Shown: positions 7,368-42,182 of the stretch, piece after piece
How positions within the stretch are numbered: position 1 is the first letter of the stretch
Layout: the number at the start of each line of letters is the position of its first letter
Assembly: GCA_016703425.1 (NCBI GenBank)
Contig: JADJCA010000011.1
Location: forward strand, 58,050 to 122,049
From: Myxococcales bacterium
Lineage (GTDB): Bacteria; Myxococcota_A; Polyangia; Polyangiales; Polyangiaceae
DNA: 64,000 nt
Direction: 5' to 3'
Made by a program: the position numbers and the translations under genes
Notes under the pieces: generated by a model
What the model saw: the letters and a program-made list of their open reading frames with translations, nothing else
Database searches by the model: none
What the model was told of the DNA's origin: nothing

Positions 7368-7483
7368 TCCAAGCCCGCCGGTTCGGCCTCCACCGCGAAA
7401 GCGAGGAGGCTTAGTGGGCCGGTGCGCTGGGCAAGCTTTTTGGAGGTCCAGGCGGGAGCCGGTTAGACTGGGGAACGAATGGA

Positions 7484-8077
7484 ATGAGTTTCATCAACTA
7501 CATGGCCAGGGAGATCAACTGCAAGTTGGTCTACTACGGGCCCGGTCTTTGCGGAAAGACCACCAATCTCCAGTACATCTACGAACGCACCAATCCGGAT
7601 GCGAAGGGGAAGATGATCAGCCTCGCGACGGAAACGGAGCGAACGCTGTTCTTCGACTTCCTGCCGCTGTCGCTCGGTGAAATCCGCGGGTTCAAGACGC
7701 GCTTTCACCTCTACACGGTGCCCGGGCAAGTCTTCTACGACGCCTCGCGGAAGCTGATCCTGAAGGGCGTCGACGGCGTCGTCTTCGTCGCCGACTCCCA
7801 AGTCGAGCGCACCGAGGCAAACCTCGAGTCGGTCGAGAACTTGCGCACGAACCTCGCGGAGCAGGGCTACTCGCTCGACAAGATTCCGTACTGCGTGCAG
7901 TACAACAAGCGCGACCTCCCGAACGCCGTGACCGTCGAAGAGCTCCGCCAGATGCTGAACACGACCAACGTGCCCGACTTCGAGGCCGTTGCGCGCACCG
8001 GCGTAGGCGTCTTCGACACGCTCAAGGCCATCGCGAAGCTCGTCCTCACGGAGCTCAAAAAGGGCGGCGGCGGCTGA
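7484..8077 (+). CDS. mglA: MglA, Ras-like small GTPase controlling motility polarity
   Basis: 197 aa, near-identical over long stretches to M. xanthus MglA from memory ([97 protein letters not shown]). Confidence 0.97.
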
Positions 8078-13916: not shown

Positions 13917-15161
13917 TTAACTGCCGAGCTTCGCCTGGAGACTGCGGAGTCGGTCGATCAGGAGATCGTAGGTCGCGGGGCGCTTGCCGGCCTCTTGGTC
14001 GAGCATCCAGCGCACGACGTCGACGAACTCGTGCGCGTAGCCCGGGATCGTGTCGGGAATGGTGACCGGCTCGTAGCGCGCCTTGCGGCCCGTGGTGCGG
14101 TCGCGCTCCGTCGAGAAGGGAGGCTTGCCGGTGGCGCCGTGCAGCATCGTGACGCCCAACGCGTAGACGTCGACCCGGAAGTCGACCTTGTCAGGCTGGG
14201 AGACGGCTTCCGGCGCCATGTAGCCGCGCGTGCCGACGACGGTGCGGCGCACGCGATCGAGGGAGCTCGGATCGATCGTCGTCGGAGTGGCGAGACCGAG
14301 GTCGACGATCTTGGTCATGCCGTCTTTGGCGAGCATGATGTTCGCGGGCTTGATGTCCCGGTGGATGAGGCCTTGCGCCAGGCCCGCCTTGAGCCCCACG
14401 GCCACGTCGAGCGCGACGCGCAGGAGCGCTGCGGGAGGCAGCGGACCGTCGCTGGAGATCGCCTTCGAGAGCGTTCGGCCCTCGATGTATTCCATGACGA
14501 CGTAGGTGATGTTCTTCGTGTGCGTGACATCGAAGACGCGAACGACGTTGGGGTGATTGATCTTCGCCGCGAAGCGAGCCTCTTCGCAGAGGCGGTCGGC
14601 CAGCTCGGGGTTCTTTCGCACGACCTTCGAGCGAAGAAGCTTCAAGGCCACAGGCATGTGCAAGAGCAGGTGGGTCGCGCGGAAGACTGCGGCGAAGCCC
14701 CCGGTCCCGAGGAGCTCTTCGATGCGGTACTTGTCGATGATCGCGCCGACGCCGGGGAGGTCCGTCTCGACGGGCGCGACCGCGGTCCGGGGGCGCGTCT
14801 TGTCGGTTGCCTTCTTCTTTCGACGCGCCAGCGATGCGATGCTCTTGGGCCGCATCTCCGGCGTAACCGGCGGCGCTGCCGTGAGCACCTCCGCCGGCGA
14901 GTAGGTCGACGCGGGCAGCACGAAGGCATCGGTCGGCAGGACAGGGTCGATGGGCAGGAGCGCCGCGAGCGTCACCTCACGCGGGCGGACAATGTCCGAA
15001 CGAAAGAGACCGTGCAGGCTCCCCTCGATCCGTTGCGACTCGTCGACGGACTCGCCGAGCGACTCCACCGAGTCTTGGCCGCCGGACTCTTGCTCCGTGC
15101 CCAGCGGCTGCGAGACGCGTTCGATGGCTGCCCGGGCGCCGCCTTGAATGTTCGGATCCAT
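13917..15161 (-). CDS. Hanks-type Ser/Thr protein kinase (last gene of the che operon)
   Basis: Track ORF trimmed to the ATG at 15161 with a GGAGGAGCGAGG RBS. Kinase subdomains present: GxGxxAxV (GTGGFAAV), VALK, HRDIKPAN, DLG, GTRGYMAPE. Confidence 0.8.
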   Translation of the reverse strand: MDPNIQGGARAAIERVSQPLGTEQESGGQDSVESLGESVDESQRIEGSLHGLFRSDIVRPREVTLAALLPIDPVLPTDAFVLPASTYSPAEVLTAAPPVTPEMRPKSIASLARRKKKATDKTRPRTAVAPVETDLPGVGAIIDKYRIEELLGTGGFAAVFRATHLLLHMPVALKLLRSKVVRKNPELADRLCEEARFAAKINHPNVVRVFDVTHTKNITYVVMEYIEGRTLSKAISSDGPLPPAALLRVALDVAVGLKAGLAQGLIHRDIKPANIMLAKDGMTKIVDLGLATPTTIDPSSLDRVRRTVVGTRGYMAPEAVSQPDKVDFRVDVYALGVTMLHGATGKPPFSTERDRTTGRKARYEPVTIPDTIPGYAHEFVDVVRWMLDQEAGKRPATYDLLIDRLRSLQAKLGS

Positions 15162-15220
15162 GCCTCGCTCCTCCGGCCTGGCAGGCGGCACCCCGCCCGC
15201 GCCATTTCCGCCTTGCTGAC

Positions 15221-16711
15221 TCACGTCTTCGCTCCGCTCGCGCCGCGACCCCAGAGCTTGATGCCGTCGACCAGCAGGTTGCGAAGCTCGGCGTGGCCGA
15301 CGCCAAGCTCCCCTTGCACCACGCGCACGGCGGAGCCGCCGTCCTGGATGGCCGACAGCTCGCTCACGTTGCCCTCGAGCGCCGCATTGCCAACCCACAG
15401 CGTCGACGGCGGGATGAAGTGGCGGAGCCAGCCTTCAAGGTCGACGCGCGCCTTGGTGCCCACGGCGAGGAAGTCACCGTCGGGCGGCGCGATGAGCACG
15501 AACGAAGGGACGCGGTGGAGGTGCGCCCGAAACGCGTTGGGGTTGCGCACGTCGACGAGCACGATGTCGACGAGGCGTTCGTGACGCAGGAAGAAGGAGA
15601 GGCCGAAGGCCTTGCTCTTCTCGGACAAGCTCCCCAAGACCCACTTCTCCGTCGGCGGCGCTGCGATCGAGAGCATCGCGGAGACACCGGCGGCAAGATC
15701 GGCGAGAAAGAGCACGTGCAGTCGGTCGCGTCCGCCTTCGACGCGAGTCCACTTGGCGAGCTCTTCGTAGGTGAAGAGGCGCAGCTCACCGAGGGTGAAG
15801 CCATCGCCGACGCCGAGCTCGAACTGCGCCGCAACGAGGCGCGTTGGCGTGAGCGGTGACACGAGCTCGGCGTCGCCGCCAAGCGAGGGGCGCGGCGGTC
15901 GATGCGTCGTGCGCACGGGAGCGCCGGTGAGCTGTTGCGAGTGACGTTCCGTGTCGAGGAGGCGAGCGCCCTCCATGATGAGGCCCGTGACGGACTCCTC
16001 GATGGTGAAGGAGTCGACGGTCACTTCGCAGGGCCCGGGCAAGAACTCGAACTGTCCTTGGCCCTCGGCCATGAGCTTGAAGAACGCCTCGGAGCCCACG
16101 AGATTTCCGTAGACCGCGTGAACGACGCGGCCTTCGTTGAAGAAGACTTCGCCGACGGCGCGGCGGGTGCCAACGGCGAGCGTGCCGGTTCGTCGCCCCA
16201 TCTCGAGGATAACGACGAGGTCAGGGAACGCGATGGCGGAGAAGTCGCCGGCGAGGTTGTAGGCGCGGCGTCGCCATGCGTCGCGGACGCGCCGCTGGCG
16301 CCCAATTTGCGCGTCGACGCGGGCCACGAGCTCCGCCTGATCGCAGGGCTTGACGAGGAAGTCGTCGGCGCCGGCACGCAGTGCGAGCACCTTCGTGGTC
16401 ACGCGACTGTCGGCGGAGAGGAAGACGACAGGGATGTTCCGGAGGCGGCTCTCTTGCGCCAAGCGGCGCACGAGCTGAACCCCGTTCATATCGCGGAGGT
16501 CGGTCTCGGTGATGATGAGGTCGACGAGCTGATTGCGGAGGATATCGATGGCGCCGGCGGCGTCTTCGACAGTCTCAACGGCAAAATTTCCCGCCTTCGA
16601 AAGGGCGCCTTCGACGAAACGTCTTGAGACACCGTCAGGATCCACGACGAGGACGGTCGCCGGGCCATCCTCAGGCACCGGCGAATTGTCAGGGGCTGAC
16701 GACCTCGTCAT
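15221..16711 (-). CDS. response regulator with N-terminal receiver, PATAN/DUF4388 domain, and a C-terminal domain of unknown function
   Basis: REC with a phospho-Asp context (VDLIITETDLRDMNG) then a DUF4388-like segment (DLVVILEMGRRTGTLAVGTRRAVGEVFFNEGRVVHAVYG...GSEAFFKLM). Confidence 0.65.
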   Translation of the reverse strand: MTRSSAPDNSPVPEDGPATVLVVDPDGVSRRFVEGALSKAGNFAVETVEDAAGAIDILRNQLVDLIITETDLRDMNGVQLVRRLAQESRLRNIPVVFLSADSRVTTKVLALRAGADDFLVKPCDQAELVARVDAQIGRQRRVRDAWRRRAYNLAGDFSAIAFPDLVVILEMGRRTGTLAVGTRRAVGEVFFNEGRVVHAVYGNLVGSEAFFKLMAEGQGQFEFLPGPCEVTVDSFTIEESVTGLIMEGARLLDTERHSQQLTGAPVRTTHRPPRPSLGGDAELVSPLTPTRLVAAQFELGVGDGFTLGELRLFTYEELAKWTRVEGGRDRLHVLFLADLAAGVSAMLSIAAPPTEKWVLGSLSEKSKAFGLSFFLRHERLVDIVLVDVRNPNAFRAHLHRVPSFVLIAPPDGDFLAVGTKARVDLEGWLRHFIPPSTLWVGNAALEGNVSELSAIQDGGSAVRVVQGELGVGHAELRNLLVDGIKLWGRGASGAKT

Positions 16712-16718
16712 CGTTCAA

Positions 16719-17309
16719 TTATCTCTCTTTTCCCTTCTGGCGTGCTCCGGAGAGAATCGCGGCCGAGGCGCTAAGCTCGCTCGTCGTCCAAAGACGACTG
16801 GGGTCGAGGACCAAGCCGACGGCAGACTGAGTTCCCGGCCCTGCTCGATCGCCGAGCTGGGAGGACGGGAAGCCGTGGCTTAGCGCTTGGGGCCGAATAC
16901 GGAACACACCAGGGGGCAGCGGAATCGTCGCACCGAGCGGAGCTACGAACAAGCATTCTCCGGTGCCGACAGCCATGGGCACCTCTGAGCCGAGGTGGGG
17001 TACACGGAGGAGAACCCAGGCGATTTGCGGGATATCCAGCTCCAGCAGCGCGCCGAGCTGCCACGACGCGTAACGTTGACCAGCGACCTCAAGGAGGCCC
17101 GGAGACAGCTCTTCTGCATCAGCCTCGGCCGGAACGATGAGCGTCTGCGTTTGGATCGGCAAAACGAGGCGATCAATCCACTGGGCGGGCAGCGCGCCGA
17201 CAAAGTCCCCACACTGGAGGAAGACGCACAGCTCAGCCTTATCCGCGTCGGGTTGGGCGCCGCCCCAAGTCGAGAGGCTTGCGCCACCGCTGGAGGTCGA
17301 CGCCGTCAT
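16719..17309 (-). CDS. CheW-like coupling protein (divergent)
   Basis: About 190 aa, CheW-like core by position and weak motif similarity. ATG overlaps the cheA stop (ATGA). Confidence 0.55.
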   Translation of the reverse strand: MTASTSSGGASLSTWGGAQPDADKAELCVFLQCGDFVGALPAQWIDRLVLPIQTQTLIVPAEADAEELSPGLLEVAGQRYASWQLGALLELDIPQIAWVLLRVPHLGSEVPMAVGTGECLFVAPLGATIPLPPGVFRIRPQALSHGFPSSQLGDRAGPGTQSAVGLVLDPSRLWTTSELSASAAILSGARQKGKER

Positions 17310-20300
17310 TGCGAGTCACCCGAGTCTTGCGAGTGCGACTGCGAGTCATCACCAGCGCCCTGAGCGCCGACGGGCTTCTTCTTCGGTCCGTACTTCTCGA
17401 GAGCGCCCTCGAGCTGTCGGGCGTTGAAGGGCTTGGTCAGGTAGTCGGTGCACCCGAGCGCGCGCGCCTGATCTTGGTGCTTCTGCCCCGAGCGGCTCGA
17501 CACGACGATGATCGGGAGGTCTTGGTACGCCGGCAGGAACCGGAGCTCACGAATGAGATCGTAGCCGTGCATGCGCGGCATCTCGAGGTCCGTGAAGATG
17601 AGGTCGTAGTGACCTTCGCGAAGCTTCGACATGGCGTCGAGACCGTCGACGGCGGTGGTGACATCGGTGCCGAGGTTCGTGAGCTCCTTCTCGGCGATCT
17701 TGCGGACCGAGAGCGAGTCGTCGACGAAGAGGACGCGCACCTTGCGTTGGACCGCGGGCATCCGAAGCTGGGTGGCCTTCTTCGGGCGCTCGAGGCTCGT
17801 CGTCGTCGGCTGGAAGCGCGGACCGCCACCCGAGAGTGCGCGGCCTGCGTGGGCTTCGACGACGCCGGGGATGTCGAGGATGAGCGAGAGCTCGCCGGTA
17901 CCGCGAATCGTGACGCCGGCGAGCACCGGGTGACCCGTGAGCAGGTCGCCGAGGCTCTTTACGACGATCTCCTCTTGGCCGATCACGGCATCGACCTGGA
18001 GCATCAATCGCTGGTCACCGACGCGAAGCACGATGACAGGCCCGCGCTTCTCGGCGCTGGAGCGATCCGTGACGCCGAAGAGCTCGTCCATCGTGAGCAC
18101 CGAGACGTAGGTCTCGTCGAGCTTCACGCGACGAATGCCCGCCGACTCGACGATCACGCCTTCCTCCGCATCGAGGATGTGCTGCGCGAAGTAGAGCGGG
18201 ATGGCGTACGAGCGACCGCGACTCGACACCAAGAGGGCCTTGGTGATGGCGAGCGTGAGCGGCAAGGTGACCAAGAACGCGGTGCCCTTACCCGGCATGG
18301 TGTCGACGCGAATCGAACCGTTGAGACGGTCGACGGCGCGACGAACCACGTTGCCGCCGACACCGCGGCCGGCGACGTTACCAACGGTCGCCTTGGTGCT
18401 GAGGCCCGCGGCGAACACGAGGTCCTTGACGACTTGGTCGTTGACCGAGGTCTCGGCGGGAATGACGCCCATCTGCACGCCCTTGGCATGCAGCGCGGCG
18501 AGGTCGAGGCCGTTGCCGTCGTCGCGAACTTCAAGGACGATCTGCCCCGACTCTTGCCGTGCGGCGAGGGTGAGCGTTCCCGTCTCCTTCTTGCCGGTGG
18601 CCTGACGCGCGTTGGGCGCTTCGATGCCGTGCACCACGGCGTTGCGCACCAGGTGCAGCATCGGACCGAAGAGCGCGTCGGCGATGGTCTTGTCGATGTT
18701 GACGTCTTCACCGGAGGTGACGACGCGAACCTCTTTGCCTTCGCGGGCCGCGGCGTCGCGGACCGGGAGGCGGAGGCGCTGGAAGAGGAACTCGAGGGGA
18801 ACCATGCGAGCGCGGGTGACCTCGCTCTGGATGCCCGTCACGATGCTGCCGTGCGCTTCCGAGTCGGCCGCGAAGGCGGAGAGCTCGCGATAGAGCTGGC
18901 CGTACATTTCGTTGAAGTCGTTGCTCATCTCCGCGAGGCTTCGCGCGAGGACGTTGACGTCGTCGTAGCGGTCGAGCTCGGCGTCGCTGAAGGCGCCCAT
19001 CTGATCTTCCGAGGTGAGCTTCGCGAGCGCTGTGGCAGCGCCCTCCGCAGGCCGGTTCGCCAGTTGGGCGACCGTCTGCTGGTAGGCCGCGTGCATCTCG
19101 CCGGGGCGGCGATAGGTGAACTCGTGTTCCTCTCGGAACGACTCGACCGTATCCATGAGGCGACGACGGCTGCGTCCGAGCTCGAGTTGCAGTTGCTTCA
19201 AGACGTCGATGCGGCTCATGAGCCGCGAACGGCTGACGACGAGCTCGCCGGCGAGGTTCATGAGGGCGTCGAGGCGCTCTGTTGAAACGCGGATGAAGCG
19301 ACGATCGGCCGCGTCGGCTGGCGCGCCCGGCGCGAGCGACTCGGCGTCGCCGCTGCCCCCACCGGTGTCGACGTTGATGATGCTGACGCTGGAACCACCG
19401 GTGTGGCTGACGGGCTCGTAGGCCGCCTTGCTGCCGGCGAGGACGTTCCCGATGCGCGACTCGACGCGCGCGATGGAGGTCTCGACATAACCGTCGGCGG
19501 CCTGCCGGAGGTTGCGGCGAACGTCCTGCTGCACCTCCAAGAGGAAGGTCGCGACGGCCTTCATCGACGGAAGGATCGTCGCCTCGATGAGGCCTTCGAG
19601 GAAGGTCTCGACGCGGTGCAGGATCGCTCCCGTGGGACCGAGACCGATGGTGTTCACGGCGCCCTTGAGCGTGTGCGTAAGGCGCATCAAGGTCTCGATG
19701 GCGGCCTTAGGCTGGTTCGTCTCCTCGAGGGCGAGGATGGCGCGATCGAGCTGATCGAGCAGCTCCGAACACTCCTGGTTGAAGGCGTCGACGAGGTCCG
19801 GCTCGGCGGGTAGCTGAACGCGCTCGCGCACGACGGCTTCCTTCACGCGAGGCGCCTTGGCGGGCTTCTTCGCCGCGGCGCTGGAGAACGACGGCTCCTC
19901 GGCACGCTCCGACTGGAGCAGCTGGGTCACGCGAGCGAGGCCGCGCTGCAGAACGGCGGCCGAGGTCTTGTCGGCGCTCGCGAGCGACTGAAGGCGGGCC
20001 GCCTCCGTCGCGATGGCGTCCTCGGCGACGACGAGCGCCGAACCCTTGAGCCGGTGGAACAACTTGCCCAACTCACCGCGAACTTCGCGCGCGCGAGGGT
20101 CGGCGGCCTTGGCGAGCTCGTCCAAGTATTGGCCCGCTCGCTCGCAGAGCTCCTTGGCCTCTTCCATGAAGAACTTCTTCGCGTCACCGACTTCGCTCGG
20201 CGGCTCAGCGGCCGACGCGGGCTCCTTCGGGGACTTCGCGACGTCGAGCTCGGGGAGGTTGGCGAGCTTGAGCAAGCGACGCGTGTCGCCGAGGAGGTTC

Positions 20301-22318
20301 TTGAGGAATTGCTCGTCGACGTCGGTGCCCGATTCGAGGACCTCCTCCATGCGCTTCTGGAGGCTCTCGGCGATCTTGCTGACTTCCTTCAGGCCGACCG
20401 TCGCGGCCGCGCCCTTGAGCGTGTGATAGATGCGCTCGACGTGGTCGGCGCTGGCCACGTTGGTCGGGTCTGCGAGGAGCGCTTGCAAGTGCCCCTGGAG
20501 CGCGACGACGAGCTCGCGGGCTTCCTCTTGGAAGATCGCCTGAAGCTCCTTGTCGATCTCTGCCGACTCTTCGCCGCTCGGCGACTCCTCGGCGAAGGAG
20601 AACTCCGCGCCTTCCTCGCCGCTCGGGCTGTCACCTGACATCGGCGGCGGCGAAAGCGTGATGGGCTTGAGGTCGACCTTGCGAAGGAGGCTGTTGGACT
20701 CGAGGGCGAAGGCCGCCAGCGTGTCTTCCCCGGCATCGAGGCGCCCGTCGGCGACGTCCTTCATCATCTTCGAGCAATCGGCGGCGGCGCTCGCGTATTG
20801 CGGGAGGTCGTTCTTCTGCGCGAGGACGTTGAGCTCGCCAAACATGCGCTCCAGCTTGCGCGCCGCCGAAAGGTCCGTGGCATCGACCGAGAGCGCGCTC
20901 ACGCACTCCTGCACGCCGTAGAGGATCCCTTTGGCTTGCTCCAAGAATTCGCGATGCTGCACGGCGTGAATCGGCTCCGGCCCCGTCGCGCGCGACGGCG
21001 GCGGCCCCGGCTCTTCTTCGGCGAACGAGAACTCTTCGCCGCGGCTCGTGGCGACGGCGATCTCCGGCAGGTTCACCTGACGCAAGATTCGGTTCGTGTC
21101 GCGGGCAACTTGCTCGAGGAACCCGTGTGTCACGGGCGTCGTGTGCTCGACGACCCCCATCATGCGCGCCTGGAGCTCGGAGGCGGCTTCGCTCACGTTG
21201 CTGAGACCGGCAAACGAGGCGCTCCCCTTGAGGGTGTGAAAAATGCGCTCGACGCTCTTCGACGACGACTCGTCCTTGGGGTTCTCGAGCAACTTCTGCA
21301 GGTAGCCCTGCAGCGGCACCAACAGGTCGCGAGCCTCGTCGTGGAACATCGTGTCGAGCTCGCCCTCCGGGACGACCTCGAGCTCTTCGCTCGGGAGGTC
21401 GGTCACTTCTTCGGCGGGCGCTGCCACGTACATGACGCCGAGGCGCGGCGCGCCGGCCATGTGGAGCATGCGCTCGAGGTCGCGGATCTGCTGTTCGATG
21501 AACGCCGGCGTGATGCTCGTCGAACCGATGATGACACCCTCGAAGTTGCGGCGAAGCTGCTCCGAGAGCTTGTGAACCTCAGGGAAGCCGGCGGCGCCAG
21601 CGCCACCCTTGATGCCGTGGAGGATGCGCTCGATGTGACCCGCGGCGACCATTTTGTCGGCATCATCGATGAACGCTTGCACGTGGCGAGCGAGCGCTTC
21701 GCCGGACTCGCGGACCTCTTCACGGAAGATGACCTGAAGCTCTTCGTCGAAGACGGGCGCCTGCGACGGCGGGGCGCTGACGTCGTTCGGGTCGACGGTC
21801 GAGGCGGGGGCCGACGCGGCGAGGCTCGCGCGAACCTCGGCGTCGTAGGCGGGCCCTTCGACCTTCTCGGCGAACGGTGCGCCGACGACGTCGGCGAGCT
21901 TGTCGCGAAACGCGAGGAGGAGCCACTCGGCCTCGTCGCTGTCGTGCTTCAGCTCGAGGTCGAGCATGGCGCGCATCTCGGTGGCGCCTTCCGCGCAATG
22001 TTGCGCGATGCGCCGCGCCTCCTTCGCGTGAGCCTCGATGGCGCGGACCTCTTCAAGGCCCTTGCCGGCCAGATGCTCGAGCATCCGGGCGCTCTCGGCC
22101 AGCGAGTTCGCCTGAACGAGGCTCGAGGTGCCGCTGACGGCATGCGCGAAGTCGCCGACCTTCTCAAAGAGCGGCGCGCCGTTGATGTCCTTCAGCGACG
22201 TCTGGTCGAGCGACGGGGAGGCGAGAAGCGCTCGTGCCGCTTCTTCGATTCGACCCAGGAAGTTCGTGATGTCCGTCGTGAACGTCTCGCGGACATCGTC
22301 GATTGAGAATCCTGACAT
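17306..22318 (-). CDS. ChpA-like multi-Hpt CheA histidine kinase with a C-terminal receiver (5 Hpt, dimerisation, HATPase, CheW-like, REC)
   Basis: 1670 aa. Five Hpt boxes (LHGIKGGAG, FHTLKGSASFAG, YHTLKGAAATVG, FHRLKGSALVV, THTLKGAVNTIG). CheA ATPase N, G1 and G2 boxes (HLVRNAVVHGIE, RDDGNGLD, GRGVGG). CheW-like domain. C-terminal REC (RVLFVDDS...DLIFTDLEMPRMHGYDL...KPF). Confidence 0.9.
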   Translation of the reverse strand: MSGFSIDDVRETFTTDITNFLGRIEEAARALLASPSLDQTSLKDINGAPLFEKVGDFAHAVSGTSSLVQANSLAESARMLEHLAGKGLEEVRAIEAHAKEARRIAQHCAEGATEMRAMLDLELKHDSDEAEWLLLAFRDKLADVVGAPFAEKVEGPAYDAEVRASLAASAPASTVDPNDVSAPPSQAPVFDEELQVIFREEVRESGEALARHVQAFIDDADKMVAAGHIERILHGIKGGAGAAGFPEVHKLSEQLRRNFEGVIIGSTSITPAFIEQQIRDLERMLHMAGAPRLGVMYVAAPAEEVTDLPSEELEVVPEGELDTMFHDEARDLLVPLQGYLQKLLENPKDESSSKSVERIFHTLKGSASFAGLSNVSEAASELQARMMGVVEHTTPVTHGFLEQVARDTNRILRQVNLPEIAVATSRGEEFSFAEEEPGPPPSRATGPEPIHAVQHREFLEQAKGILYGVQECVSALSVDATDLSAARKLERMFGELNVLAQKNDLPQYASAAADCSKMMKDVADGRLDAGEDTLAAFALESNSLLRKVDLKPITLSPPPMSGDSPSGEEGAEFSFAEESPSGEESAEIDKELQAIFQEEARELVVALQGHLQALLADPTNVASADHVERIYHTLKGAAATVGLKEVSKIAESLQKRMEEVLESGTDVDEQFLKNLLGDTRRLLKLANLPELDVAKSPKEPASAAEPPSEVGDAKKFFMEEAKELCERAGQYLDELAKAADPRAREVRGELGKLFHRLKGSALVVAEDAIATEAARLQSLASADKTSAAVLQRGLARVTQLLQSERAEEPSFSSAAAKKPAKAPRVKEAVVRERVQLPAEPDLVDAFNQECSELLDQLDRAILALEETNQPKAAIETLMRLTHTLKGAVNTIGLGPTGAILHRVETFLEGLIEATILPSMKAVATFLLEVQQDVRRNLRQAADGYVETSIARVESRIGNVLAGSKAAYEPVSHTGGSSVSIINVDTGGGSGDAESLAPGAPADAADRRFIRVSTERLDALMNLAGELVVSRSRLMSRIDVLKQLQLELGRSRRRLMDTVESFREEHEFTYRRPGEMHAAYQQTVAQLANRPAEGAATALAKLTSEDQMGAFSDAELDRYDDVNVLARSLAEMSNDFNEMYGQLYRELSAFAADSEAHGSIVTGIQSEVTRARMVPLEFLFQRLRLPVRDAAAREGKEVRVVTSGEDVNIDKTIADALFGPMLHLVRNAVVHGIEAPNARQATGKKETGTLTLAARQESGQIVLEVRDDGNGLDLAALHAKGVQMGVIPAETSVNDQVVKDLVFAAGLSTKATVGNVAGRGVGGNVVRRAVDRLNGSIRVDTMPGKGTAFLVTLPLTLAITKALLVSSRGRSYAIPLYFAQHILDAEEGVIVESAGIRRVKLDETYVSVLTMDELFGVTDRSSAEKRGPVIVLRVGDQRLMLQVDAVIGQEEIVVKSLGDLLTGHPVLAGVTIRGTGELSLILDIPGVVEAHAGRALSGGGPRFQPTTTSLERPKKATQLRMPAVQRKVRVLFVDDSLSVRKIAEKELTNLGTDVTTAVDGLDAMSKLREGHYDLIFTDLEMPRMHGYDLIRELRFLPAYQDLPIIVVSSRSGQKHQDQARALGCTDYLTKPFNARQLEGALEKYGPKKKPVGAQGAGDDSQSHSQDSGDSQ

Positions 22319-22388
22319 ACCAGCCCCTCACGCTCGGCCAGGCCGAGAAAAACCGGGAAGCAAAAAGTGTCGAAAACCGTGGGCGGCC

Positions 22389-24665
22389 TCAGGCCACCTT
22401 GAACTGACGGATGTTCTGCGTGATTTGCTCGGTGAGCGAGATGAGCTCGCCGACCGTGGCCACGGTTCCGTCAGCGCCCTTCTGCGTCTGCTGGGCGATG
22501 GCGGTGACCTCTTCCATCGTGCGCACCATGGTCTGCGTGCCCTCGACCTGCGCCTTCGCGACGGTAGCGATGTGAGCGACGAGGCCGGCCGACTCGGTGG
22601 ACACCTGGCGAATCTTGCCAAGCGACACGCCGGCTTCGGCGACCAGCTGCGACTCCTGCTCAACGACCTGCGTCTGCCGCTCGATGGCTTCGGCGGTTTC
22701 CTTCGTCTCGGCGTGGATGGCCTTGACGAGCTTGTCGATTTCCTTGGTGGCGGCGGCCGTTCGTTCGGCGAGCTTGCGCACCTCTTCGGCAACGACGTGG
22801 AAGCCGCGGCCGTGTTCGCCGGCGAGCGCGGCTTCGATGGCGGCGTTCAGCGCGAGGAGGTTGGTCTTCTCGCTGATGCGGCTGATGGTGGCGACGATGC
22901 CCGTGATCTCGAGGGACCGATCGCCGAGAATCTTCATGCGCTTGGCACCGGCCTGAACGCTTGCGCGAAGCTCGTTCATCGTCGAGATGACGTTCTCGAC
23001 GCGCTCGGCGCCTTCGATGGCTGACGCCTCGGTGCGCTGTGCGGCGGTCGCCGCCGTGAGGGCGTCCTGGCTGACGCGAGAGTTCTCTTCGCTCATCTGC
23101 ATGACGAGCTGGCGAGCGGTGAGGATGTCCTTCGCTTGGTTGGTGGCGCCGTTGGCCATGCCCTTCGCGAGGCTCGAGATCTCGACGACGGCGCGGTTGG
23201 AACGCTCCAGCTGTTGCTGGATGCGACCGATAAGGTTCTGCATGCTCTCGAGGAGGTTGTTGAAGCCGTCGGCCACGTTACCGAGGGCTCCTTCCGTCAC
23301 GCGGGCGCGGACCGTGAGGTTTCCGTCGGCGGCGTCCGAGACGACCTGCAGCAAGTCGAAGATGTTCTCTTGGAGCTGGCGGTTCTCGTCTTCAACGCGG
23401 TTCTTGAGCGTACGAGCTTCGACGAGGGCGTCGTTGATCTGGCCGTATTGCGTGCCGATCTGACCGAGCTCGTCTTGCGCGTCGAGGCGGAGTTGCTCTT
23501 CCATGGTGCCGGCGATCATGCGGCCCGTCGCGGAGCCGAGGACGGCGATGGAGCGCTGAACCGAGAGGAAGAAGCCTACGAACAAGTACGCGAGCGCGAG
23601 GGCCGCGAAGACGGCGATGCCGAGGGCGAGGTTTCGGTCGAAGGTATAGCCGTCGACGCGGTCTTCGATGAGGGCGTCGAGCTGGGGACCGATGCGGCGC
23701 CAGAGCTCAACGGTCTGCAGCGCGTTCTCAAGCGTCGCCGTGACGATGGGGCGGAGCGCGTCCTGGTTCGGCTTTTCTTTCGCCGTGAGGAACTTGGTGC
23801 GGACCATCTCGGCGTGCTGGTTGAGCTTGTCGAGGGACTTCTCGGCGAGCTTCAACGTCTGCGCGACGTTTTGACCGCGCTTCTTGGCGGCTTCGCGGAA
23901 GCCGGCAAAGTTGGTCTTGTCGAGCTCCGTCGTTTGATTGAGGAACTGCTTGTAGATACCGGCGAGTTCGACGTTTCGTTCCGCTTCGGCCTGCTCGTCG
24001 GGCTGCGGCCTCATGCCGAGCGTCGCCGAGCGCGCGATGCTGTCGACGAGCGACGGCATCTTGCGGAGGTAGGCGTCCATCAAGAAGTAGCTCTCGAGCT
24101 CTTGGTCGAGGACGAGGTTGGAGTTCGAGCCGGCTTGGTTGAGTACCAGGTCGATCATCAAAGAGGCGATGTCGGCGTGGTACTTGTCGGCCTCGTCGGC
24201 CGTGGCGAGCTTCTGCTTCTGGAGCCCCTCCCAGAGGGTCTTCGCCTGCTTCCACTTCTTCGTGGTGCGAAGCTCGTCGCCGACCTCGGCATCCTGCTCG
24301 TCGACCTTCTTGACGGCCTTGTTGGCCTCTTCCGTGGCCGCCGTGACGTCGCCGCTAAAGCCCGTCAAGCCCAACGCCACGCCGACCGAGGCCACGCGCC
24401 GTCGCTCGATTTGGTAGAGGAACTCGCGCGCCGGCTCGACCCAGCGAACGCCGCTTCGCTCCTTCTCGTTGAACTCGATGCGCTCTTGCGAGATGGCGTT
24501 CTGGAGGAAGAGGACGTAGCCGAGCGGGACCGCTACGAGCACGCCGATGATCAAGAATTTCCAGACGTATTTCAGTCTGTTCATCAAGGCCATGGAAGGC
24601 TGAAAGAGGAACGAGACCATCCCCCACACCTGTCCGAACCCGCTCGGCGTCCCGCCAGCATTCAT
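22389..24665 (-). CDS. methyl-accepting chemotaxis protein, PilJ-like (TM1, about 290-aa periplasmic region, TM2, HAMP, MCP signalling domain)
   Basis: Highly conserved MCP signalling hairpin ([36 protein letters not shown]). Two TM segments flank a large periplasmic domain. Strong AGGAGAAG RBS before ATG 24665. Confidence 0.85.
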
Positions 24666-24820
24666 GGTCGTCTTCTCCTAAAACTCGAAACTCTCAAATC
24701 GCACCGGCAGCGCGGGAAGCGCGTGGCTGAGTGGCCGCTCCGCCGGTGAAAAACTCTTTGTCGCCCCGCCAGAACCCCCGGAGGTCTCTGGCCCCATCCC
24801 CTAAGCCGCTATCTTCCTCG

Positions 24821-25438
24821 CTACTGATATTTCAGTTGCTCCAGTCGCTGCAAAAGAGCGGCTGTGTCGAGCACCGTGACGAAGAGGCCTCCACGGTTGT
24901 CGGCCTCCAAGAATCCCTGGACGAGCGGGTTGTCGCCGCCGGCTTTCGGCCGGCTGAGGACGCCCGGTCCGATCTCGAGGACGATCTCCATCCGGTCGAT
25001 GAGGACGCCCGCCATGAGGTTGCTCGCTCGAATCACGAGGACCGGGTACGGCTTTCCGTCACCGACCGTGATTTCCGAGCGTTTGCTGGCAGGGATCTCG
25101 AGAATTTCAGCCAGGTCGATCAGCGCCAGCGGTGTTCCGCGGAAGTTGAACAGGCCGAGCATGGCCGACTTGGACAGCGGCACGGGAGCCAATTGGTCGA
25201 CTGTCACCAGCTCGCCAACGAGGCCGATGTCGAGGGCGAAGCAGTCGCCGCAGAGCCAGAACGCGCACACGCGCTGGACCCCGCCGCCCTTGTTGGCAGC
25301 GCCTTGTGATCCCCCCGACCCGCCGGACCCCTTGCCGCTGCTCTGACCGCTGCCGGAACGGCCGGAGGAGCCCGAGCCGCTTCCGCCTTTCGAGGAGCCG
25401 CGCGAGCGGGAGGAACCTTTGGAAGACTCAGTTGCCAT
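24821..25438 (-). CDS. CheW-like protein with a 50-aa Gly/Ser-rich N-terminal extension
   Basis: CheW core (LVTVDQLAPVPLS...GLFNFRGTPLALIDLAEIL...VLVIRASNLMAGVLIDRMEIV). GAAGGGA RBS. Confidence 0.8.
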   Translation of the reverse strand: MATESSKGSSRSRGSSKGGSGSGSSGRSGSGQSSGKGSGGSGGSQGAANKGGGVQRVCAFWLCGDCFALDIGLVGELVTVDQLAPVPLSKSAMLGLFNFRGTPLALIDLAEILEIPASKRSEITVGDGKPYPVLVIRASNLMAGVLIDRMEIVLEIGPGVLSRPKAGGDNPLVQGFLEADNRGGLFVTVLDTAALLQRLEQLKYQ

Positions 25439-25457
25439 GGTTTCCCTTCAGCTGACT

Positions 25458-25820
25458 TCAGCCGACGTAACGCTTGATGATTGCTTGGAGCGTGTCGGGG
25501 GTGAACGGCTTCGCGACGTGGTCGTCGGCGCCTTGTTTCTGGCCCCAGAAGCGGTCGCTGTCGCCGCCCTTGGACGTCACGAGGACGACCGGAATCTTGG
25601 AGGTGTCGGGGTCGGTCTTGAGCTTGCGGCAGGCGTGAAAGCCGTTCATCGACGGCATCACGACGTCGAGGAAGATGAGCTGCGGCTTCACCTCTTTGGC
25701 CCGGGCGAGCGCCTCGCTGCCGTCGGTGGCGTATTCAGGCTTGTGACCGGACGACGTCACGACGCGGCCGATGAGCTCGCGGTCGGTCTGTACGTCGTCA
25801 ACGATGAGAATGGTTCCCAT
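25458..25820 (-). CDS. single-domain CheY-like response regulator (PilG/PilH-like)
   Basis: 120 aa REC: ILIVDD, D at LIFLDVVMPSMNG, T, KPF. Confidence 0.85.
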   Translation of the reverse strand: MGTILIVDDVQTDRELIGRVVTSSGHKPEYATDGSEALARAKEVKPQLIFLDVVMPSMNGFHACRKLKTDPDTSKIPVVLVTSKGGDSDRFWGQKQGADDHVAKPFTPDTLQAIIKRYVG

Positions 25821-25848
25821 GGAGTCCTCGGAATTGGGCAGGCGGCGT

Positions 25849-27624
25849 TCAGGCGACGAGCAAGCGCTCTAGGTCAACATACGTAATGGGCTTTGTCAGT
25901 ACGGAATCAAAACCGGCGGCCGAGAGCTCGTCGACCTTCTCGCGAGAAGGCGTGTCGAGCACCGCGACGACCGCCAGATGGGAGAGATCGTCGGCCTTTC
26001 GGACCTGGGCCACGGCGCGTACCGCAGCGTCGCCGGCGGCGTCCGCGTTGAGGATGACCATCCGCGGCCTCTCCCTGAGGATCGCGGCGAAGATGTCTTT
26101 GTCGGAGTCGAAGGCCACGAGCGACAGGGGCTCGGCGCGGTTCTGAAGCAGCTTGGTGAGCGGCGCCTGGAACCCTTCGACGTCGGGCTCGAGGATCATG
26201 ACGGCGCTGGGTCGCTTGGTCTCGGCGGCGACCGCTGCGACGTGCCGCTCGCGGATGAGCCCCACGTGGAGGAGCCTCGCGACGATGTGGGCGGCCTCGC
26301 GCGCCGGTAGGCCGCTGCGGTTCGTCAGCGTCTGAACGCTGTTGCCACCACCCACGAGGCTGAGAATGCGGCGCTCCTCGGCGGAGAGCTCGAAGTCGCG
26401 AAGGCGGCGGCTGAAGTTCTCGGCGCGCTCGAAGACCGCCTCGGTCTTGGGCAGACGCGCCTCGACGGTCGCGCGGCCAGAAGGCCGACGGAACAGCTCG
26501 AGCTCGAGCTGGTCGACCGAGATGCGAAGGCCGTAGGCGTCGACGTAAGAAGGGTGCGTCGGCCGCTCGCGCCAGAAAAAGCGCACCGAGCTCGCCTCGA
26601 TGATGTCGAGGAGCGAGCGCTTTCCCTGCCTTTGAAGCAACGGCGCGAGATCGGTCGTCGGCAGGTAGCCGCGCTCGGCGAGGGTCACGAAGAACGGCTT
26701 GCCGCTCGAGCGCTGGTCGGCTTCTGCGCGCTCGCGCACGTCGGCGGCGAGGGCCGGCAGCGCGACCTTCGCGTCGCGGCAGTAGTCGATGGGATCGTGG
26801 CTCGTGGCGAGGAGGACTTCGCCGCGGCGAAGGTACGCGACGACCTTGCGGCTGCCGGCGGCGAGCCAAAGCTCGCCCGTTTGACCCGAGGCACGGATCA
26901 TCTTCACGATGTCCGTGGGGGACCAGCCGGTGGCCTTGCCGGAGAGCGACCCCTCGCCCTCTTCGACCGGCTCCGCGGGGCCAGCGCCGCCGAGCACTTC
27001 TTTGAAGACCGGCACGAGGGCGTCGAGCACTTGTCCGACGAGCTCGGGCGTCAAAAACTTTCGCGCAAAGTAGGGCGCCGGTTGGTTGGCGCCGAGCTGC
27101 GCCATCCAGTCGGGGATGCGCGCAAACTGCGGCCGCAGCGACGCGAAGAGCGACTTCGCCGCCGTCTCCTTCTGGCGAAAGGAGAAGAGCGAGACGCTGG
27201 CCGGCGCCGGCGGACGCGACGGCCTCAGCGACGCCGTCGCCGCTTGCGCCTTCTTGTCGAGCACCGCTTGCACACGCGTGACGATGTCGTCGGGCGAAAA
27301 CGGCTTCGAGACGTAGTCGACCTGCGCGCGCATCCCCTTGAAGAGCTCGCGGACGTTCTCGTCCTTCGCCGTCATCAAGATGATCGGTACGTTGGCCGTG
27401 CGCGCATCCTGACTAAGCCGCTGCGCGACATCGATGCCACGCATGTCGGGGAGGACGAAGTCGAGGAGAATGAGCTCGGGGATGCCGTGGTGATGCGTCG
27501 CCTTGAGCAGGCCCTCATGGCCCGTCGTGGCGTAGTCGATGGTGGCATCGATGTTCTTGAGCGCCAGGCCGACGGCCTTGCGAACGGTGAGGCTGTCGTC
27601 GATGACGAGGAGACGCGACGTCAT
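25849..27624 (-). CDS. multidomain response regulator: receiver, PATAN/DUF4388-like, middle domain, C-terminal pseudo-receiver
   Basis: Trimmed to ATG 27624, which overlaps the upstream stop (ATGA). N-terminal REC (LLVIDDSLTV...ELILLDFVLPDMRG...SKPF). DUF4388-like segment (GQTGELWLAAGSRKVVAYLRRGEVLLATSHD). C-terminal REC-like fold without a clear acid pocket. Confidence 0.6.
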   Translation of the reverse strand: MTSRLLVIDDSLTVRKAVGLALKNIDATIDYATTGHEGLLKATHHHGIPELILLDFVLPDMRGIDVAQRLSQDARTANVPIILMTAKDENVRELFKGMRAQVDYVSKPFSPDDIVTRVQAVLDKKAQAATASLRPSRPPAPASVSLFSFRQKETAAKSLFASLRPQFARIPDWMAQLGANQPAPYFARKFLTPELVGQVLDALVPVFKEVLGGAGPAEPVEEGEGSLSGKATGWSPTDIVKMIRASGQTGELWLAAGSRKVVAYLRRGEVLLATSHDPIDYCRDAKVALPALAADVRERAEADQRSSGKPFFVTLAERGYLPTTDLAPLLQRQGKRSLLDIIEASSVRFFWRERPTHPSYVDAYGLRISVDQLELELFRRPSGRATVEARLPKTEAVFERAENFSRRLRDFELSAEERRILSLVGGGNSVQTLTNRSGLPAREAAHIVARLLHVGLIRERHVAAVAAETKRPSAVMILEPDVEGFQAPLTKLLQNRAEPLSLVAFDSDKDIFAAILRERPRMVILNADAAGDAAVRAVAQVRKADDLSHLAVVAVLDTPSREKVDELSAAGFDSVLTKPITYVDLERLLVA

Positions 27625-28676
27625 CAGCGCACCTCCGCGACAATGCCAGAGACCTTGCGCGGGCCTTGGCGAAGGCGCCCGGTAAGCAAATCGAGGACCG
27701 CCGGCCCACCTTCGGCGACGGCCTTGGCGATATCGTCTTCCGCGCCCGACGCGCCCGTCAGCGCGACGACAACGTCGCCGCTCGCGGCTCCAAAACGCAT
27801 CATGAGGGAACCCGTCTTTCCGAAAGCGTTGGAGAGGTTGTACGCGTTGGGCAGTCGCATCGGCGAAAGGATGCGAAGCGGCACTTCGGGCCCCGCCGGC
27901 CAATAGACGATCCAGTCTTCACCGTCGGGCGCGAGGTGCAGCGCGGCGTAGCTGCCGCCGAGCATGTCACGGAGCTTGCGCTCCTTCTCGTCGTCGGGCT
28001 CTTCGCGGCGCATGGCGTCGGCCACGCGGGCCGCTTCCGCGTCGACGAGCAACGGTGCGCCCGGGTCAACGCGAAGGAGAGCCGTGAGCCCCTCGGTCGT
28101 GCCTTGCACAACGAGCGGCAACGAATCGCTGGGGGTGTCACCGCCACACGTCATGGCGCCGACCCAACCGTTGGCGTGTTGACGCTCGCTCGTGCGGACG
28201 GGACCGTGGCGGGCGTCGGCGGGCCCGGCACCGAGGAGGCTCCCGGTGGCGCTCACAGTGTTGGCGGTGAGGGCTCGAATGCGCGCGGCGATGCGCCCCG
28301 CAGACAGCGGCGGAGAGAGCAGCGTCACGCGGCCGCTCTGAATCGTCACCGTCGGTCGCACGAGCGGCTCTTCGCAGAGGAGCAAGAGCGAGATCGTCGG
28401 CATGCTGCGCGTCATGAGCTCGACGATGTCGTCGGGCACGCGACGCTCACCAGCGGCGAGCCACGCGACGAGCAGCGCCGGCGGCGGAGCACCGGTGGCC
28501 GCGAGCCACGAGACGAGCTGCGTGGCCGGTGCAGCGGTTGCGTCGCCAGTCCAAAGGAAACGGCGGACGCCCGCTGCTTCACACGCGCCGACGATGTCGC
28601 CGAGCAACGACTCGGGCATGCGGTGCGATGCCACCACGACGGTGGACTTGCTCTCTTCGGGCGATTGATTGGTCAC
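27624..28676 (-). CDS. hypothetical protein in che operon
   Basis: High GC3. GTG 28676 lies 2 nt after the CheW stop. Alternative ATG 28619. No recognised motifs. Confidence 0.4.
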   Translation of the reverse strand: MTNQSPEESKSTVVVASHRMPESLLGDIVGACEAAGVRRFLWTGDATAAPATQLVSWLAATGAPPPALLVAWLAAGERRVPDDIVELMTRSMPTISLLLLCEEPLVRPTVTIQSGRVTLLSPPLSAGRIAARIRALTANTVSATGSLLGAGPADARHGPVRTSERQHANGWVGAMTCGGDTPSDSLPLVVQGTTEGLTALLRVDPGAPLLVDAEAARVADAMRREEPDDEKERKLRDMLGGSYAALHLAPDGEDWIVYWPAGPEVPLRILSPMRLPNAYNLSNAFGKTGSLMMRFGAASGDVVVALTGASGAEDDIAKAVAEGGPAVLDLLTGRLRQGPRKVSGIVAEVR

Positions 28677-28677: not shown

Positions 28678-29145
28678 TCAGACCCCCACGAAATCGCTTG
28701 AACCGACGAGGTCCTTGAGGAGCGTCGGAACGTCGAGCCAACCGATGGAACGGTTGTCGATGGTTCGAGCCGCCGAGATCCACGGCGGCAACTTGTCACT
28801 GCCCGGTTGGTCGCGCTTCGCGCGCACGGTCGCTTGAACCATTCCAACGACGCTCAAGACTTCGAGCGCCCATCCGATGTCGGACTCGTCGGCGCTGACG
28901 ACGATGCCCTCTGTCTCCTTGCGACGTGGAGCGTCGGGAGCGCGATCACCGATGAGCGCAACGGAGATGATGATGCGCCCCTGATAGACGGCGAGACCAC
29001 CGACCCAACGACGCGCCAACTGCAGCGGCGTCGTTTCGTACTGGATGATTTGATAGACGGAGTCGACGGGAACAGCGACGCGAGCTCTCCCGATGGAGAA
29101 CTCGAGACCCGTCTGGATCGGCGCCTCGGTCGACGTGTCGCTCAT
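28678..29145 (-). CDS. CheW-like coupling protein (first gene of che operon)
   Basis: 155 aa CheW fold (EFSIGRARVAVPVDSVYQIIQ...GLAVYQGRIIISVAL). AAGGAG about 18 nt upstream. Confidence 0.7.
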   Translation of the reverse strand: MSDTSTEAPIQTGLEFSIGRARVAVPVDSVYQIIQYETTPLQLARRWVGGLAVYQGRIIISVALIGDRAPDAPRRKETEGIVVSADESDIGWALEVLSVVGMVQATVRAKRDQPGSDKLPPWISAARTIDNRSIGWLDVPTLLKDLVGSSDFVGV

Positions 29146-33545: not shown

Positions 33546-33634
33546 CATTTCGGCGCGTGGTGGAGGTTCGTTTTGGACAGCGATCCGTGCGAGACTTGGG
33601 AGGGTCGCTCTCGGCGCGAGCGCCCCCTTCATTC

Positions 33635-36479: not shown

Positions 36480-36497
36480 CGTCGTCGGGGTGTGGCC

Positions 36498-42112: not shown

Positions 42113-42182
42113 ACCGCGAGGGTGCTCGGTGGGAACGACAAATGCAAGGCCCGGGCGGCGATTGATGAAAGGGAGCGCGGTT

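What the first reader, a model, noticed from the sequence alone, without database searches (positions are those of the whole stretch)
15221..27624. Two REC-PATAN(DUF4388) regulators embedded in the che operon, a predicted MglA-associated domain
Genes 15221-16711 and 25849-27624 both begin with a canonical receiver followed by a DUF4388/PATAN-like segment (GTLAVGTRRAVGEVFFNEGRVVHAVYG and GELWLAAGSRKVVAYLRRGEVLLATSHD). The larger one ends in a pseudo-receiver.

The PATAN domain was originally predicted, from genomic context in cyanobacteria and myxobacteria, to work with MglA-like GTPases and Roadblock/MglB proteins and with T4P-based motility. In cyanobacteria PATAN-REC proteins couple Tax chemosensory systems to the pilus motor.

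Here the domain order is reversed (REC-PATAN). Both proteins sit inside a ChpA-type operon and next to the bona fide mglBA. They are strong candidates for the output adaptors connecting CheA/ChpA phosphorylation to MglA/MglB or the pilus machinery.
Basis: partly seen in the sequence, partly recalled or inferred. Interest (0 to 1): 0.65.

Follow-up and report, generated by a model that had tools for sequence, protein, structure and literature searches.

The report
Two PATAN regulators in myxobacterial che operon
Both genes are real PATAN-domain regulators built into a conserved chemosensory operon of uncultured myxobacteria, but only one has a working phosphorylation site, the other is coupled to a serine/threonine kinase, and the proposed tie to the MglA polarity switch does not hold in related genomes.

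Summary
The domain calls are correct. Gene 15221-16711 (RP1) has REC (E 6e-23) plus DUF4388/PATAN (E 1e-17). Gene 25849-27624 (RP2) has REC (E 4e-21) plus PATAN (E 3e-10).

Both sit in a 10-gene minus-strand operon: CheW, unknown, RP2, CheY, CheW, MCP, a CheA with five Hpt domains and a C-terminal REC, unknown, RP1, Ser/Thr kinase. This order persists in relatives at 41-55% identity.

- **RP1's receiver is not canonical.** The phospho-acceptor position is Glu69. Across the family it is Glu in 50 and Asp in 34 of 84, with at least 8 switches.
- **RP1 is tied to the kinase.** The two genes overlap by 4 bp, and some relatives encode a single fused protein. RP1's C-terminal domain occurs only in this family.
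- **The mglBA link is local.** MglA here is genuine, but it lies 7 kb away on the opposite strand and is absent from all 5 distant syntenic loci with enough flank.

RP2 has an invariant acceptor Asp (63/63) and occupies the PilG/PixG gene position. Its layout is REC, helical linker, PATAN with a helical insert, winged helix, pseudo-receiver.

Best reading: RP2 is the CheA-phosphorylated output regulator, and RP1 is a kinase-linked adaptor that does not depend on Asp phosphorylation. The downstream target is unknown. This is a new variant of a known kind, of moderate interest.

The parts
28678..29145 (-). CheW-like protein, first gene of the operon
   Evidence: Pfam CheW, E 5.8e-14. A CheW gene also precedes the cluster in L001.
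27624..28676 (-). Conserved protein of unknown function, about 350 aa (start codon uncertain). Its stop overlaps the RP2 start (ATGA).
   Evidence: No Pfam or NCBIfam hit. A 310-326 aa gene sits in the same place in relatives, with 36% identity over 97% of its length in L001. Junction.
25849..27624 (-). RP2, 591 aa. Canonical REC (residues 1-132, Asp55 codon at 27460-27462), helical linker (149-211), PATAN with a helical insert (227-400), winged helix (404-459), pseudo-receiver (474-590, Asn526 codon at 26047-26049).
   Evidence: Pfam. AlphaFold model, pLDDT 83. Family alignment. Site counts: D55 63/63, D10 63/63, K107 63/63, Asn 55/63. Weak winged-helix Pfam hits in 13 of 29 family members.
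25458..25820 (-). Single-domain CheY with canonical acceptor residues
   Evidence: Pfam REC, E 9.5e-25. Alignment to E. coli CheY. 64-70% identical in distant loci.
24821..25438 (-). CheW
   Evidence: Pfam CheW, E 6e-19.
22389..24665 (-). Methyl-accepting chemotaxis protein with two predicted membrane segments flanking a roughly 285 aa external region
   Evidence: Pfam MCPsignal, E 9.5e-37. Hydropathy segments at residues 31-59 and 344-376.
17306..22318 (-). ChpA-like CheA, 1670 aa: five Hpt domains, dimerisation domain, HATPase, CheW, C-terminal canonical REC
   Evidence: Pfam. Five H.LKG motifs. REC alignment.
16719..17309 (-). Conserved 196 aa protein of unknown function, always directly upstream of RP1. 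Its start overlaps the CheA stop by 4 bp.
   Evidence: Synteny. No Pfam or PDB hit. Only a non-significant CheW-like alignment (hhalign probability 2.6%).
15221..16711 (-). RP1, 496 aa. Atypical REC (residues 18-148, Glu69 codon at 16505-16507, Asp24-Pro25-Asp26), compact PATAN (153-260), disordered linker (263-280), family-specific alpha/beta domain (about 284-492).
   Evidence: Pfam. AlphaFold model, pLDDT 85. Site analysis. The C-terminal domain is found in only 140 of 1.84 billion representative proteins; all 9 of those scanned with Pfam that gave a hit (lengths 357-959 aa) carry PATAN, and 8 of the 9 also carry REC.
13917..15224 (-). Hanks-type Ser/Thr kinase, 435 aa, no membrane segment. 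Its GTG start overlaps the RP1 stop (GTGA). Last gene of the operon.
   Evidence: Pfam Pkinase, E 3e-48. Junction. Catalytic motifs VALK, HRD, DLG and APE are present. It lies downstream of RP1 in nearly every locus with enough flank (16 loci; L107 alone gave no hit), and Pkinase-REC-PATAN-Cterm fusions exist.
6888..8077 (+). mglB (6888-7367) and mglA (7484-8077). These are neighbours in this lineage, not part of the conserved module.
   Evidence: Absent from the 5 distant syntenic loci.

Best explanation
The region encodes a conserved 10-gene chemosensory operon of an uncultured Myxococcota (Polyangia-like) bacterium. It has two different PATAN-domain components.

**RP2.** It occupies the gene position that PilG holds in Pseudomonas and that the PatA-type regulator PixG holds in cyanobacteria: first response regulator, followed by CheY, CheW, MCP and a multi-Hpt CheA. 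It has a fully intact, invariant phospho-acceptor pocket. It is most likely phosphorylated by the ChpA-like kinase. It would then act through its PATAN, winged-helix and pseudo-receiver module by binding a protein partner. This step is inferred by analogy with PixG, whose PATAN domain binds PilB1 and PilC.

**RP1.** Its receiver carries Glu, not Asp, at the acceptor site and has lost the second acidic pocket residue. It is therefore unlikely to be a normal phosphotransfer target. It is translationally coupled to a soluble Hanks Ser/Thr kinase, and in some relatives the two form one protein. It ends in a domain found nowhere else. It most likely acts as a kinase-associated adaptor or scaffold with a locked, phosphomimetic-like receiver. 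That would add a Ser/Thr-phosphorylation branch to the pathway (inferred).

**Shown versus inferred.** Domain content, site residues, operon structure, conservation and the fusions are shown. The phosphotransfer route, the binding partners and the cellular output are inferred. The nearby mglBA is not a conserved partner locus.
For: - **Domains:**
- **Operon junctions:** 4 bp overlaps and short gaps between genes.
- **Conserved synteny at 41-55% identity:**
- **RP2 sites:** D55, D10 and K107 are invariant in 63 of 63 orthologues.
- **RP1 sites:** Glu69 and Pro25. Across the family the acceptor position is Glu 50 / Asp 34, never any other residue, with at least 8 switches on a neighbour-joining tree.
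- **Kinase link:** fusions and intact catalytic motifs in the kinase.
- **C-terminal domain:** restricted to this family.
- **Cyanobacterial precedent:** PMC11181946 and bioRxiv 10.1101/2021.06.11.447907.
- **Constitutively active acceptor-Glu receiver:** PhoB D10A/D53E, PDB 2jb9, was among the closest Foldseek matches to RP1's receiver.
Against: - No biochemical data exist.
- No type IV pilus genes were found in the window or in the flanks of related loci.
- The CheA class (Tfp versus ACF) was not determined. Multi-Hpt CheAs occur in both (PMC10782961).
- 40% of RP1 homologues keep Asp, so phosphorylation may matter in part of the family.
- Homology of RP2's C-terminal module to cyanobacterial PatA beyond the Pfam PATAN core could not be shown.
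Confidence: 0.55

Rival explanations
1. Both REC-PATAN proteins are phosphorylation-dependent adaptors. They pass the ChpA signal to the MglA/MglB polarity switch, and so to motility.
For: - A genuine mglBA lies 7 kb from RP1.
- The literature reports that MglB or MglA homologues are sometimes encoded near PATAN proteins (Makarova 2006, cited in PMC4316618, which says 'occasionally').
- In M. xanthus, PATAN proteins co-occur with the MglA effector SgmX.
Against: - mglBA is on the opposite strand, convergent to the operon and separated from RP1 by five genes.
- It is absent from all 5 distant syntenic loci with at least 8 kb of downstream flank.
- RP1 lacks the acceptor Asp.
- All myxobacteria have MglA, so co-occurrence in a genome tells nothing.
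Confidence: 0.15
2. The operon is an ACF-type system (alternative cellular function) that controls something other than motility. Candidates are gene expression through RP2's winged helix, or c-di-GMP, polysaccharide or developmental pathways.
For: - Multi-Hpt CheA-REC proteins are split between the Tfp and ACF classes.
- RP2 has a winged-helix domain.
- There are no pil genes nearby.
- GGDEF proteins flank the operon here and in L001.
- MshEN-REC-PATAN fusions exist among remote relatives.
Against: - The gene order matches Pil-Chp and Tax systems.
- The only experimentally defined PATAN outputs act on the pilus motor.
- The same authors considered DNA binding by PatA-type proteins unlikely.
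- A faint FimL_C signal appears in the CheA of close relatives and of the 99%-identical contig L085.
Confidence: 0.25
3. RP1 is an ordinary phospho-accepting regulator. The Glu is tolerated, or another acidic residue such as Asp71 takes the phosphoryl group.
For: 40% of homologues have Asp at the site. Asp24, Ser99 and Lys121 are conserved.
Against: - Glu cannot form the acyl-phosphate used by receivers (established knowledge of the family).
- Asp71 is not conserved in the family.
- The Asp13 position is never acidic in any of the 84 sequences.
- Repeated Asp/Glu switching is not seen in RP2, where the site is Asp in 63 of 63.
Confidence: 0.05

Closest known systems
Cyanobacterial PatA-type regulators of Tax systems (PixG, PilG of Synechocystis)
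   Same: - PATAN plus a receiver domain.
- Encoded as the first response-regulator gene of an operon that continues with CheY, CheW, MCP and a multi-Hpt CheA-REC.
- No CheR or CheB in the cluster.
- The PATAN carries a helical insertion.
- A PATAN, helix-turn-helix, REC-like order exists inside RP2.
   Different: - RP2 has an extra, canonical N-terminal receiver, which is the one with the acceptor Asp.
- Its C-terminal receiver is degenerate (Asn).
- The host is a heterotrophic myxobacterium.
- No link to pilus proteins was tested.
- Homology beyond the PATAN core was not demonstrated here.
Pseudomonas aeruginosa Pil-Chp system (PilG, PilH, PilI, PilJ, ChpA)
   Same: The gene order is regulator, CheY, CheW, MCP, CheA. 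The CheA has multiple Hpt domains and a C-terminal receiver. There are two response regulators.
   Different: - PilG is a single-domain receiver without PATAN.
- Pil-Chp includes PilK (CheR) and ChpB (CheB), which are absent here.
- Pil-Chp has no Ser/Thr kinase or RP1-like protein.
M. xanthus receiver-containing polarity adaptors (FrzS pseudo-receiver; RomR, which links Frz to MglA/MglB)
   Different: Their outputs are coiled-coil or RomR-C domains, not PATAN. There is no kinase coupling. No orthology to RP1 or RP2 beyond the receiver fold.
M. xanthus PATAN proteins (SgnC; MXAN_3211 and MXAN_4965, which co-occur with SgmX)
   Same: They carry a PATAN domain in a myxobacterium. There is genetic or phylogenomic association with type IV pilus-dependent motility.
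   Different: Their architectures and any orthology to RP1 or RP2 were not examined. None is reported inside a che operon in the papers read.
Phosphorylation-independent receivers with Glu at the acceptor site (for example the engineered PhoB D10A/D53E, PDB 2jb9)
   Same: There is a Glu at the acceptor position and an altered acidic pocket. In PhoB this yields a constitutively active receiver (entry title).
   Different: RP1's state is natural and alternates with Asp across the family. Its activity state is unknown.

Membership tests
PATAN / DUF4388 (Pfam PF14332, PatA_N) domain proteins | Match to the PF14332 model above the gathering score (25 bits) | tested here: met
   RP1 scores 64.6 bits and RP2 scores 40.8 bits. 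All 29 RP2-family members match. All listed RP1 homologues carry PF14332.
PatA-type response regulators (cyanobacterial PATAN-REC) | N-terminal PATAN followed by a C-terminal receiver that carries the phospho-acceptor Asp | tested here: not met
   RP1 is REC, PATAN, other domain. RP2 has a receiver-like fold after PATAN, but Asn526 replaces the Asp. Its functional receiver is N-terminal.
Canonical CheY-like receiver | Asp12/Asp13, Asp57, Thr/Ser87 and Lys109 equivalents all present | tested here: met
   This row covers RP2's N-terminal REC, the CheY, and the CheA's C-terminal REC. All five positions are conserved.
Canonical CheY-like receiver | The same five positions, assessed for RP1 | tested here: not met
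   Asp57 is replaced by Glu69 and Asp13 by Pro25. Across the family the acceptor is Glu 50 / Asp 34, and the Asp13 position is never acidic.
Tfp-class (Pil-Chp / Tax) chemosensory system | CheA with multiple Hpt domains and a C-terminal receiver, in the gene order regulator, CheY, CheW, MCP, CheA | tested here: met
   The order is conserved in relatives.
Tfp-class (Pil-Chp / Tax) chemosensory system | Assignment of the CheA kinase core to the Tfp class by class-specific models or phylogeny (as opposed to ACF) | not testable with these tools
   No class models were available. Multi-Hpt CheAs fall in both Tfp and ACF. There is only a faint FimL_C signal in relatives.
Tfp-class (Pil-Chp / Tax) chemosensory system | Genomic or functional link to type IV pilus genes | tested here: not met
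   No pil genes among the window ORFs scanned or in the flanks of L001 and L002. A functional link is untested.
MglA/MglB-associated PATAN proteins (genome-context prediction) | Conserved neighbourhood with mglA or mglB homologues | tested here: not met
   mglBA is present only in the window and in the 99%-identical contig L085. It is absent from L001, L002, L094, L101 and L102.
MglA/MglB-associated PATAN proteins (genome-context prediction) | Physical interaction of PATAN with MglA, MglB or the pilus motor | not testable with these tools

The most novel reading that the evidence does not exclude
PATAN-bearing first regulators of multi-Hpt chemosensory operons are not a cyanobacterial speciality. 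They may be an older coupling device that myxobacteria share. This lineage would have added a second, previously undescribed output branch: a Hanks kinase, not the CheA, controls a PATAN adaptor (RP1) with a phosphomimetic receiver and a lineage-restricted effector domain. Asp-phosphorelay and Ser/Thr-kinase signals would then merge on one polarity or motility target, possibly MglA/MglB or the pilus motor.
Probability: 0.2. Interest if true: 0.7.

Novelty: new variant of a known kind. Interest (0 to 1): 0.42.

Why it matters
The only mechanistic knowledge of PATAN comes from cyanobacteria. There, recent papers contrast PatA-type first regulators with the plain CheY-like regulators found in heterotrophs. 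A conserved myxobacterial operon with a PATAN regulator in the same position gives a second, distant system for testing what PATAN binds.

RP1's repeated Asp/Glu exchange, its private C-terminal domain and its kinase coupling define a small, unannotated protein family. Public records call these proteins only 'response regulator'. The family could show how Hanks kinases feed into chemosensory pathways.

The result also warns against reading function from one genome's gene proximity. The mglBA adjacency does not hold outside this lineage.

Tried and rejected
- **Genome-collection scan with the RP1 alignment.** The patterns chosen were generic receiver motifs, so all 80 loci were unrelated response regulators.
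- **afdb50 fold search.** The library was unavailable.
- **RP1 C-terminal domain profile.**
  - Against PDB sequences: nothing significant.
  - Against the window's MglA: nothing. I had suspected a degenerate P-loop GTPase from the motif HVLFLADLAAGVS, and this is not supported.
  - Against RP2's PATAN-HTH-pseudoREC profile: nothing.
- **Homology of RP2's C-terminal module to cyanobacterial PatA-type proteins.** tblastn against plasmids gave no match. A profile search of the protein collection returned only RP2 orthologues. Inconclusive.
- **The 196 aa protein as a CheW.** The hhalign alignment falls on the N-terminal half of the CheW region, but the probability is 2.6% and there is no PDB hit. 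Not claimed.
- **Sharma et al. 2018, on myxobacterial chemosensory systems.** The paper is not in the held library.


Full report
**What is there**

The window is about 67% G+C. A run of tightly packed minus-strand genes spans 29145 to 13917. In transcription order they are:
- CheW (28678-29145)
- a roughly 350 aa protein with no known domain (27624-28676)
- RP2 (25849-27624)
- a single-domain CheY (25458-25820)
- CheW (24821-25438)
- a membrane MCP (22389-24665)
- a 1670 aa CheA (17306-22318)
- a 196 aa protein with no known domain (16719-17309)
- RP1 (15221-16711)
- a Hanks Ser/Thr kinase (13917-15224)

Gene junctions are 4 bp overlaps or short gaps of 7 to 155 bp, so this is one operon of ten genes. 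The CheA has five Pfam Hpt domains, each with the H.LKG histidine motif. It also has a dimerisation domain, HATPase, CheW and a canonical C-terminal receiver. No CheR, CheB or pilus genes were found among the larger ORFs of the window.

**Checking the observation**

Both proteins match Response_reg and then DUF4388 (now named PatA_N) far above the Pfam gathering score. The quoted peptides are present. AlphaFold models built on family alignments are confident, with mean pLDDT 85 and 83.
- **RP1:** receiver 18-148, compact PATAN 153-260, disordered linker 263-280, then an alpha/beta domain to residue 489.
- **RP2:** receiver 1-132, helical region 149-211, PATAN 227-400 with a helical insertion at 278-342, a three-helix winged-helix unit 404-459, and a (beta-alpha)5 receiver-like fold 474-590.

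Weak winged-helix Pfam matches in 13 of 29 family members agree with the model.

**The receivers differ**

I aligned the window's receivers to E. coli CheY, using a CheY sequence recalled from memory. RP2's N-terminal receiver, the CheY and the CheA receiver all keep Asp12/13, Asp57, Thr/Ser87 and Lys109. RP1 has Glu69 at the Asp57 position and Pro25 at the Asp13 position. RP2's C-terminal fold has Asn526 at the acceptor position.

| Site | Family counts |
|---|---|
| RP1 acceptor position | Glu 50, Asp 34 of 84; never another residue |
| RP1 Asp13 position | never acidic |
| RP1 acceptor switches on a neighbour-joining tree | at least 8 |
| RP2 Asp55, Asp10, Lys107 | 63 of 63 each |
| RP2 pseudo-receiver acceptor position | Asn 55 of 63 |

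So 'canonical receiver' holds for RP2 but not for RP1. A site that must be acidic but exchanges Asp and Glu freely is not behaving as an obligatory phospho-acceptor. PhoB D10A/D53E, a constitutively active receiver, was among the closest structural matches. That is a useful precedent for a locked, active-like state.

**Conservation and the kinase link**

RP1 has about 88 near-full-length homologues at 32-87% identity (all but one at 41% or more). RP2 has about 60. They come from soil and sediment metagenomes and from MAGs labelled Polyangiaceae, Polyangia, Kofleriaceae or Myxococcales. The window's own proteins are MBK6694665.1 and MBK6694671.1, annotated only as 'response regulator'.

Gene tables and tblastn mapping of 26 related loci show the same order, RP2, CheY, CheW, MCP, CheA, small protein, RP1, kinase, wherever the contig is long enough. 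The kinase start overlaps the RP1 stop (GTGA). Its catalytic motifs are intact. In several relatives a single protein reads Pkinase-REC-PATAN-Cterm.

A profile of RP1's C-terminal domain found only 140 representatives among 1.84 billion proteins. Apart from short fragments, most have the length and domain position of RP1. All 9 that were scanned with Pfam and gave a hit carry PATAN, and 8 of the 9 also carry REC, with or without the kinase. The domain has no detectable relative in the PDB by sequence.

**The MglA question**

MglA at 7484-8077 is unquestionably MglA (E 3e-111 to the M. xanthus protein). It is preceded by a Roadblock MglB.

Between mglA and the che operon lie a PTPS gene, a 2Fe-2S protein, a hybrid kinase with four receivers and a REC-GGDEF gene, all on the plus strand. 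The kinase that ends the che operon converges on them. The same arrangement is seen only in a 99.1%-identical MAG contig. In the five more distant loci with 8-10 kb of sequence downstream of RP1 there is no mglA or mglB (gene tables).

Published surveys call the PATAN-MglA/MglB neighbourhood 'occasional'.

**How it most likely works**

RP2 sits where PilG sits in Pil-Chp and where the PatA-type PixG sits in cyanobacterial Tax operons. In Synechocystis the kinase PixL phosphorylates PixG. Only phosphorylated PixG reaches the leading pole, and PATAN alone binds PilB1 and PilC.

By analogy, I propose that the ChpA-like kinase phosphorylates RP2 at Asp55. That would release its PATAN, winged-helix and pseudo-receiver module to bind a partner. 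RP1, with its Glu receiver, private C-terminal domain and welded kinase, is better explained as a kinase-associated adaptor than as a phosphorelay target. These functional steps are inferences.

Multi-Hpt CheA-REC proteins belong to either the Tfp or the ACF class, and I could not classify this one. A non-motility output therefore remains a serious rival.

**Comparison with known systems, and novelty**

REC-PATAN order is common outside cyanobacteria, so the 'reversal' is not special in itself. Three things are new relative to the papers read:
- a heterotrophic, myxobacterial operon whose first regulator carries PATAN
- RP2's five-part architecture, with a live N-terminal receiver and a dead C-terminal one
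- the RP1 family, with its Asp/Glu-switching receiver, unique domain and Hanks-kinase coupling

This is a new variant of a known kind, of moderate interest. The mechanistic claim about MglA is not supported.

Noticed in passing
window 9181-12919 (+): The hybrid histidine kinase with four receiver domains is broken by a frameshift near 12405-12467. In the 99%-identical contig L085 the gene is intact: 1218 aa with a C-terminal Hpt, ending at the REC-GGDEF start.
   Followed up: partly
window 35784-43508, both strands: There is a cluster of five multihaem cytochrome genes: NapC/NirT-like, cytochrome c7/c3, MtrC/MtrF-like domains and a Geobacter-type CxxxxCH motif. A CtaA/COX15 gene lies next to them. 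This is reminiscent of extracellular electron-transfer gene sets and is unusual context for a myxobacterial MAG.
   Followed up: no
window 33557-34537 (+) and 54810-56414 (+): Two FHA-domain signalling proteins, FHA-GGDEF and FHA-sigma54 activator, lie in the same window as the Hanks kinase. They are possible readers of Ser/Thr phosphorylation.
   Followed up: no
window 16719-17309 (-) and 27624-28676 (-): Two conserved proteins with no Pfam, NCBIfam or PDB match always accompany RP1 and RP2 respectively. The 196 aa protein aligns weakly to the N-terminal half of a CheW domain, but not significantly.
   Followed up: partly
remote homologues P0091, P0093-P0095: These are proteins of about 600 aa with an N-terminal MshEN domain followed by REC and PATAN (order shown by Pfam for P0091). 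MshEN is the c-di-GMP-binding N-terminus of MshE/PilB-type ATPases. They tie PATAN to pilus-ATPase-like modules.
   Followed up: partly
window 3977-5464 (-), 31479-33173 (+), 46522-51218 (-): Phosphate-related genes are scattered through the window: PPK2 polyphosphate kinase, a phosphate-selective porin, PhoU and Pst-type ABC transporter components.
   Followed up: no
window 5561-6928 (-): An ORF with no family match is transcribed divergently from mglB. It is called as 319 aa in L085 and is conserved next to mglBA in 5 of the 8 contigs that carry the identical MglA; the other three end before this position.
   Followed up: no
JGI contig of P0023 and L002: Some relatives carry extra paralogues downstream of RP1: a Pkinase-REC-PATAN protein of 827-1041 aa followed by a second stand-alone kinase. 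The kinase-PATAN unit appears to have been duplicated.
   Followed up: partly
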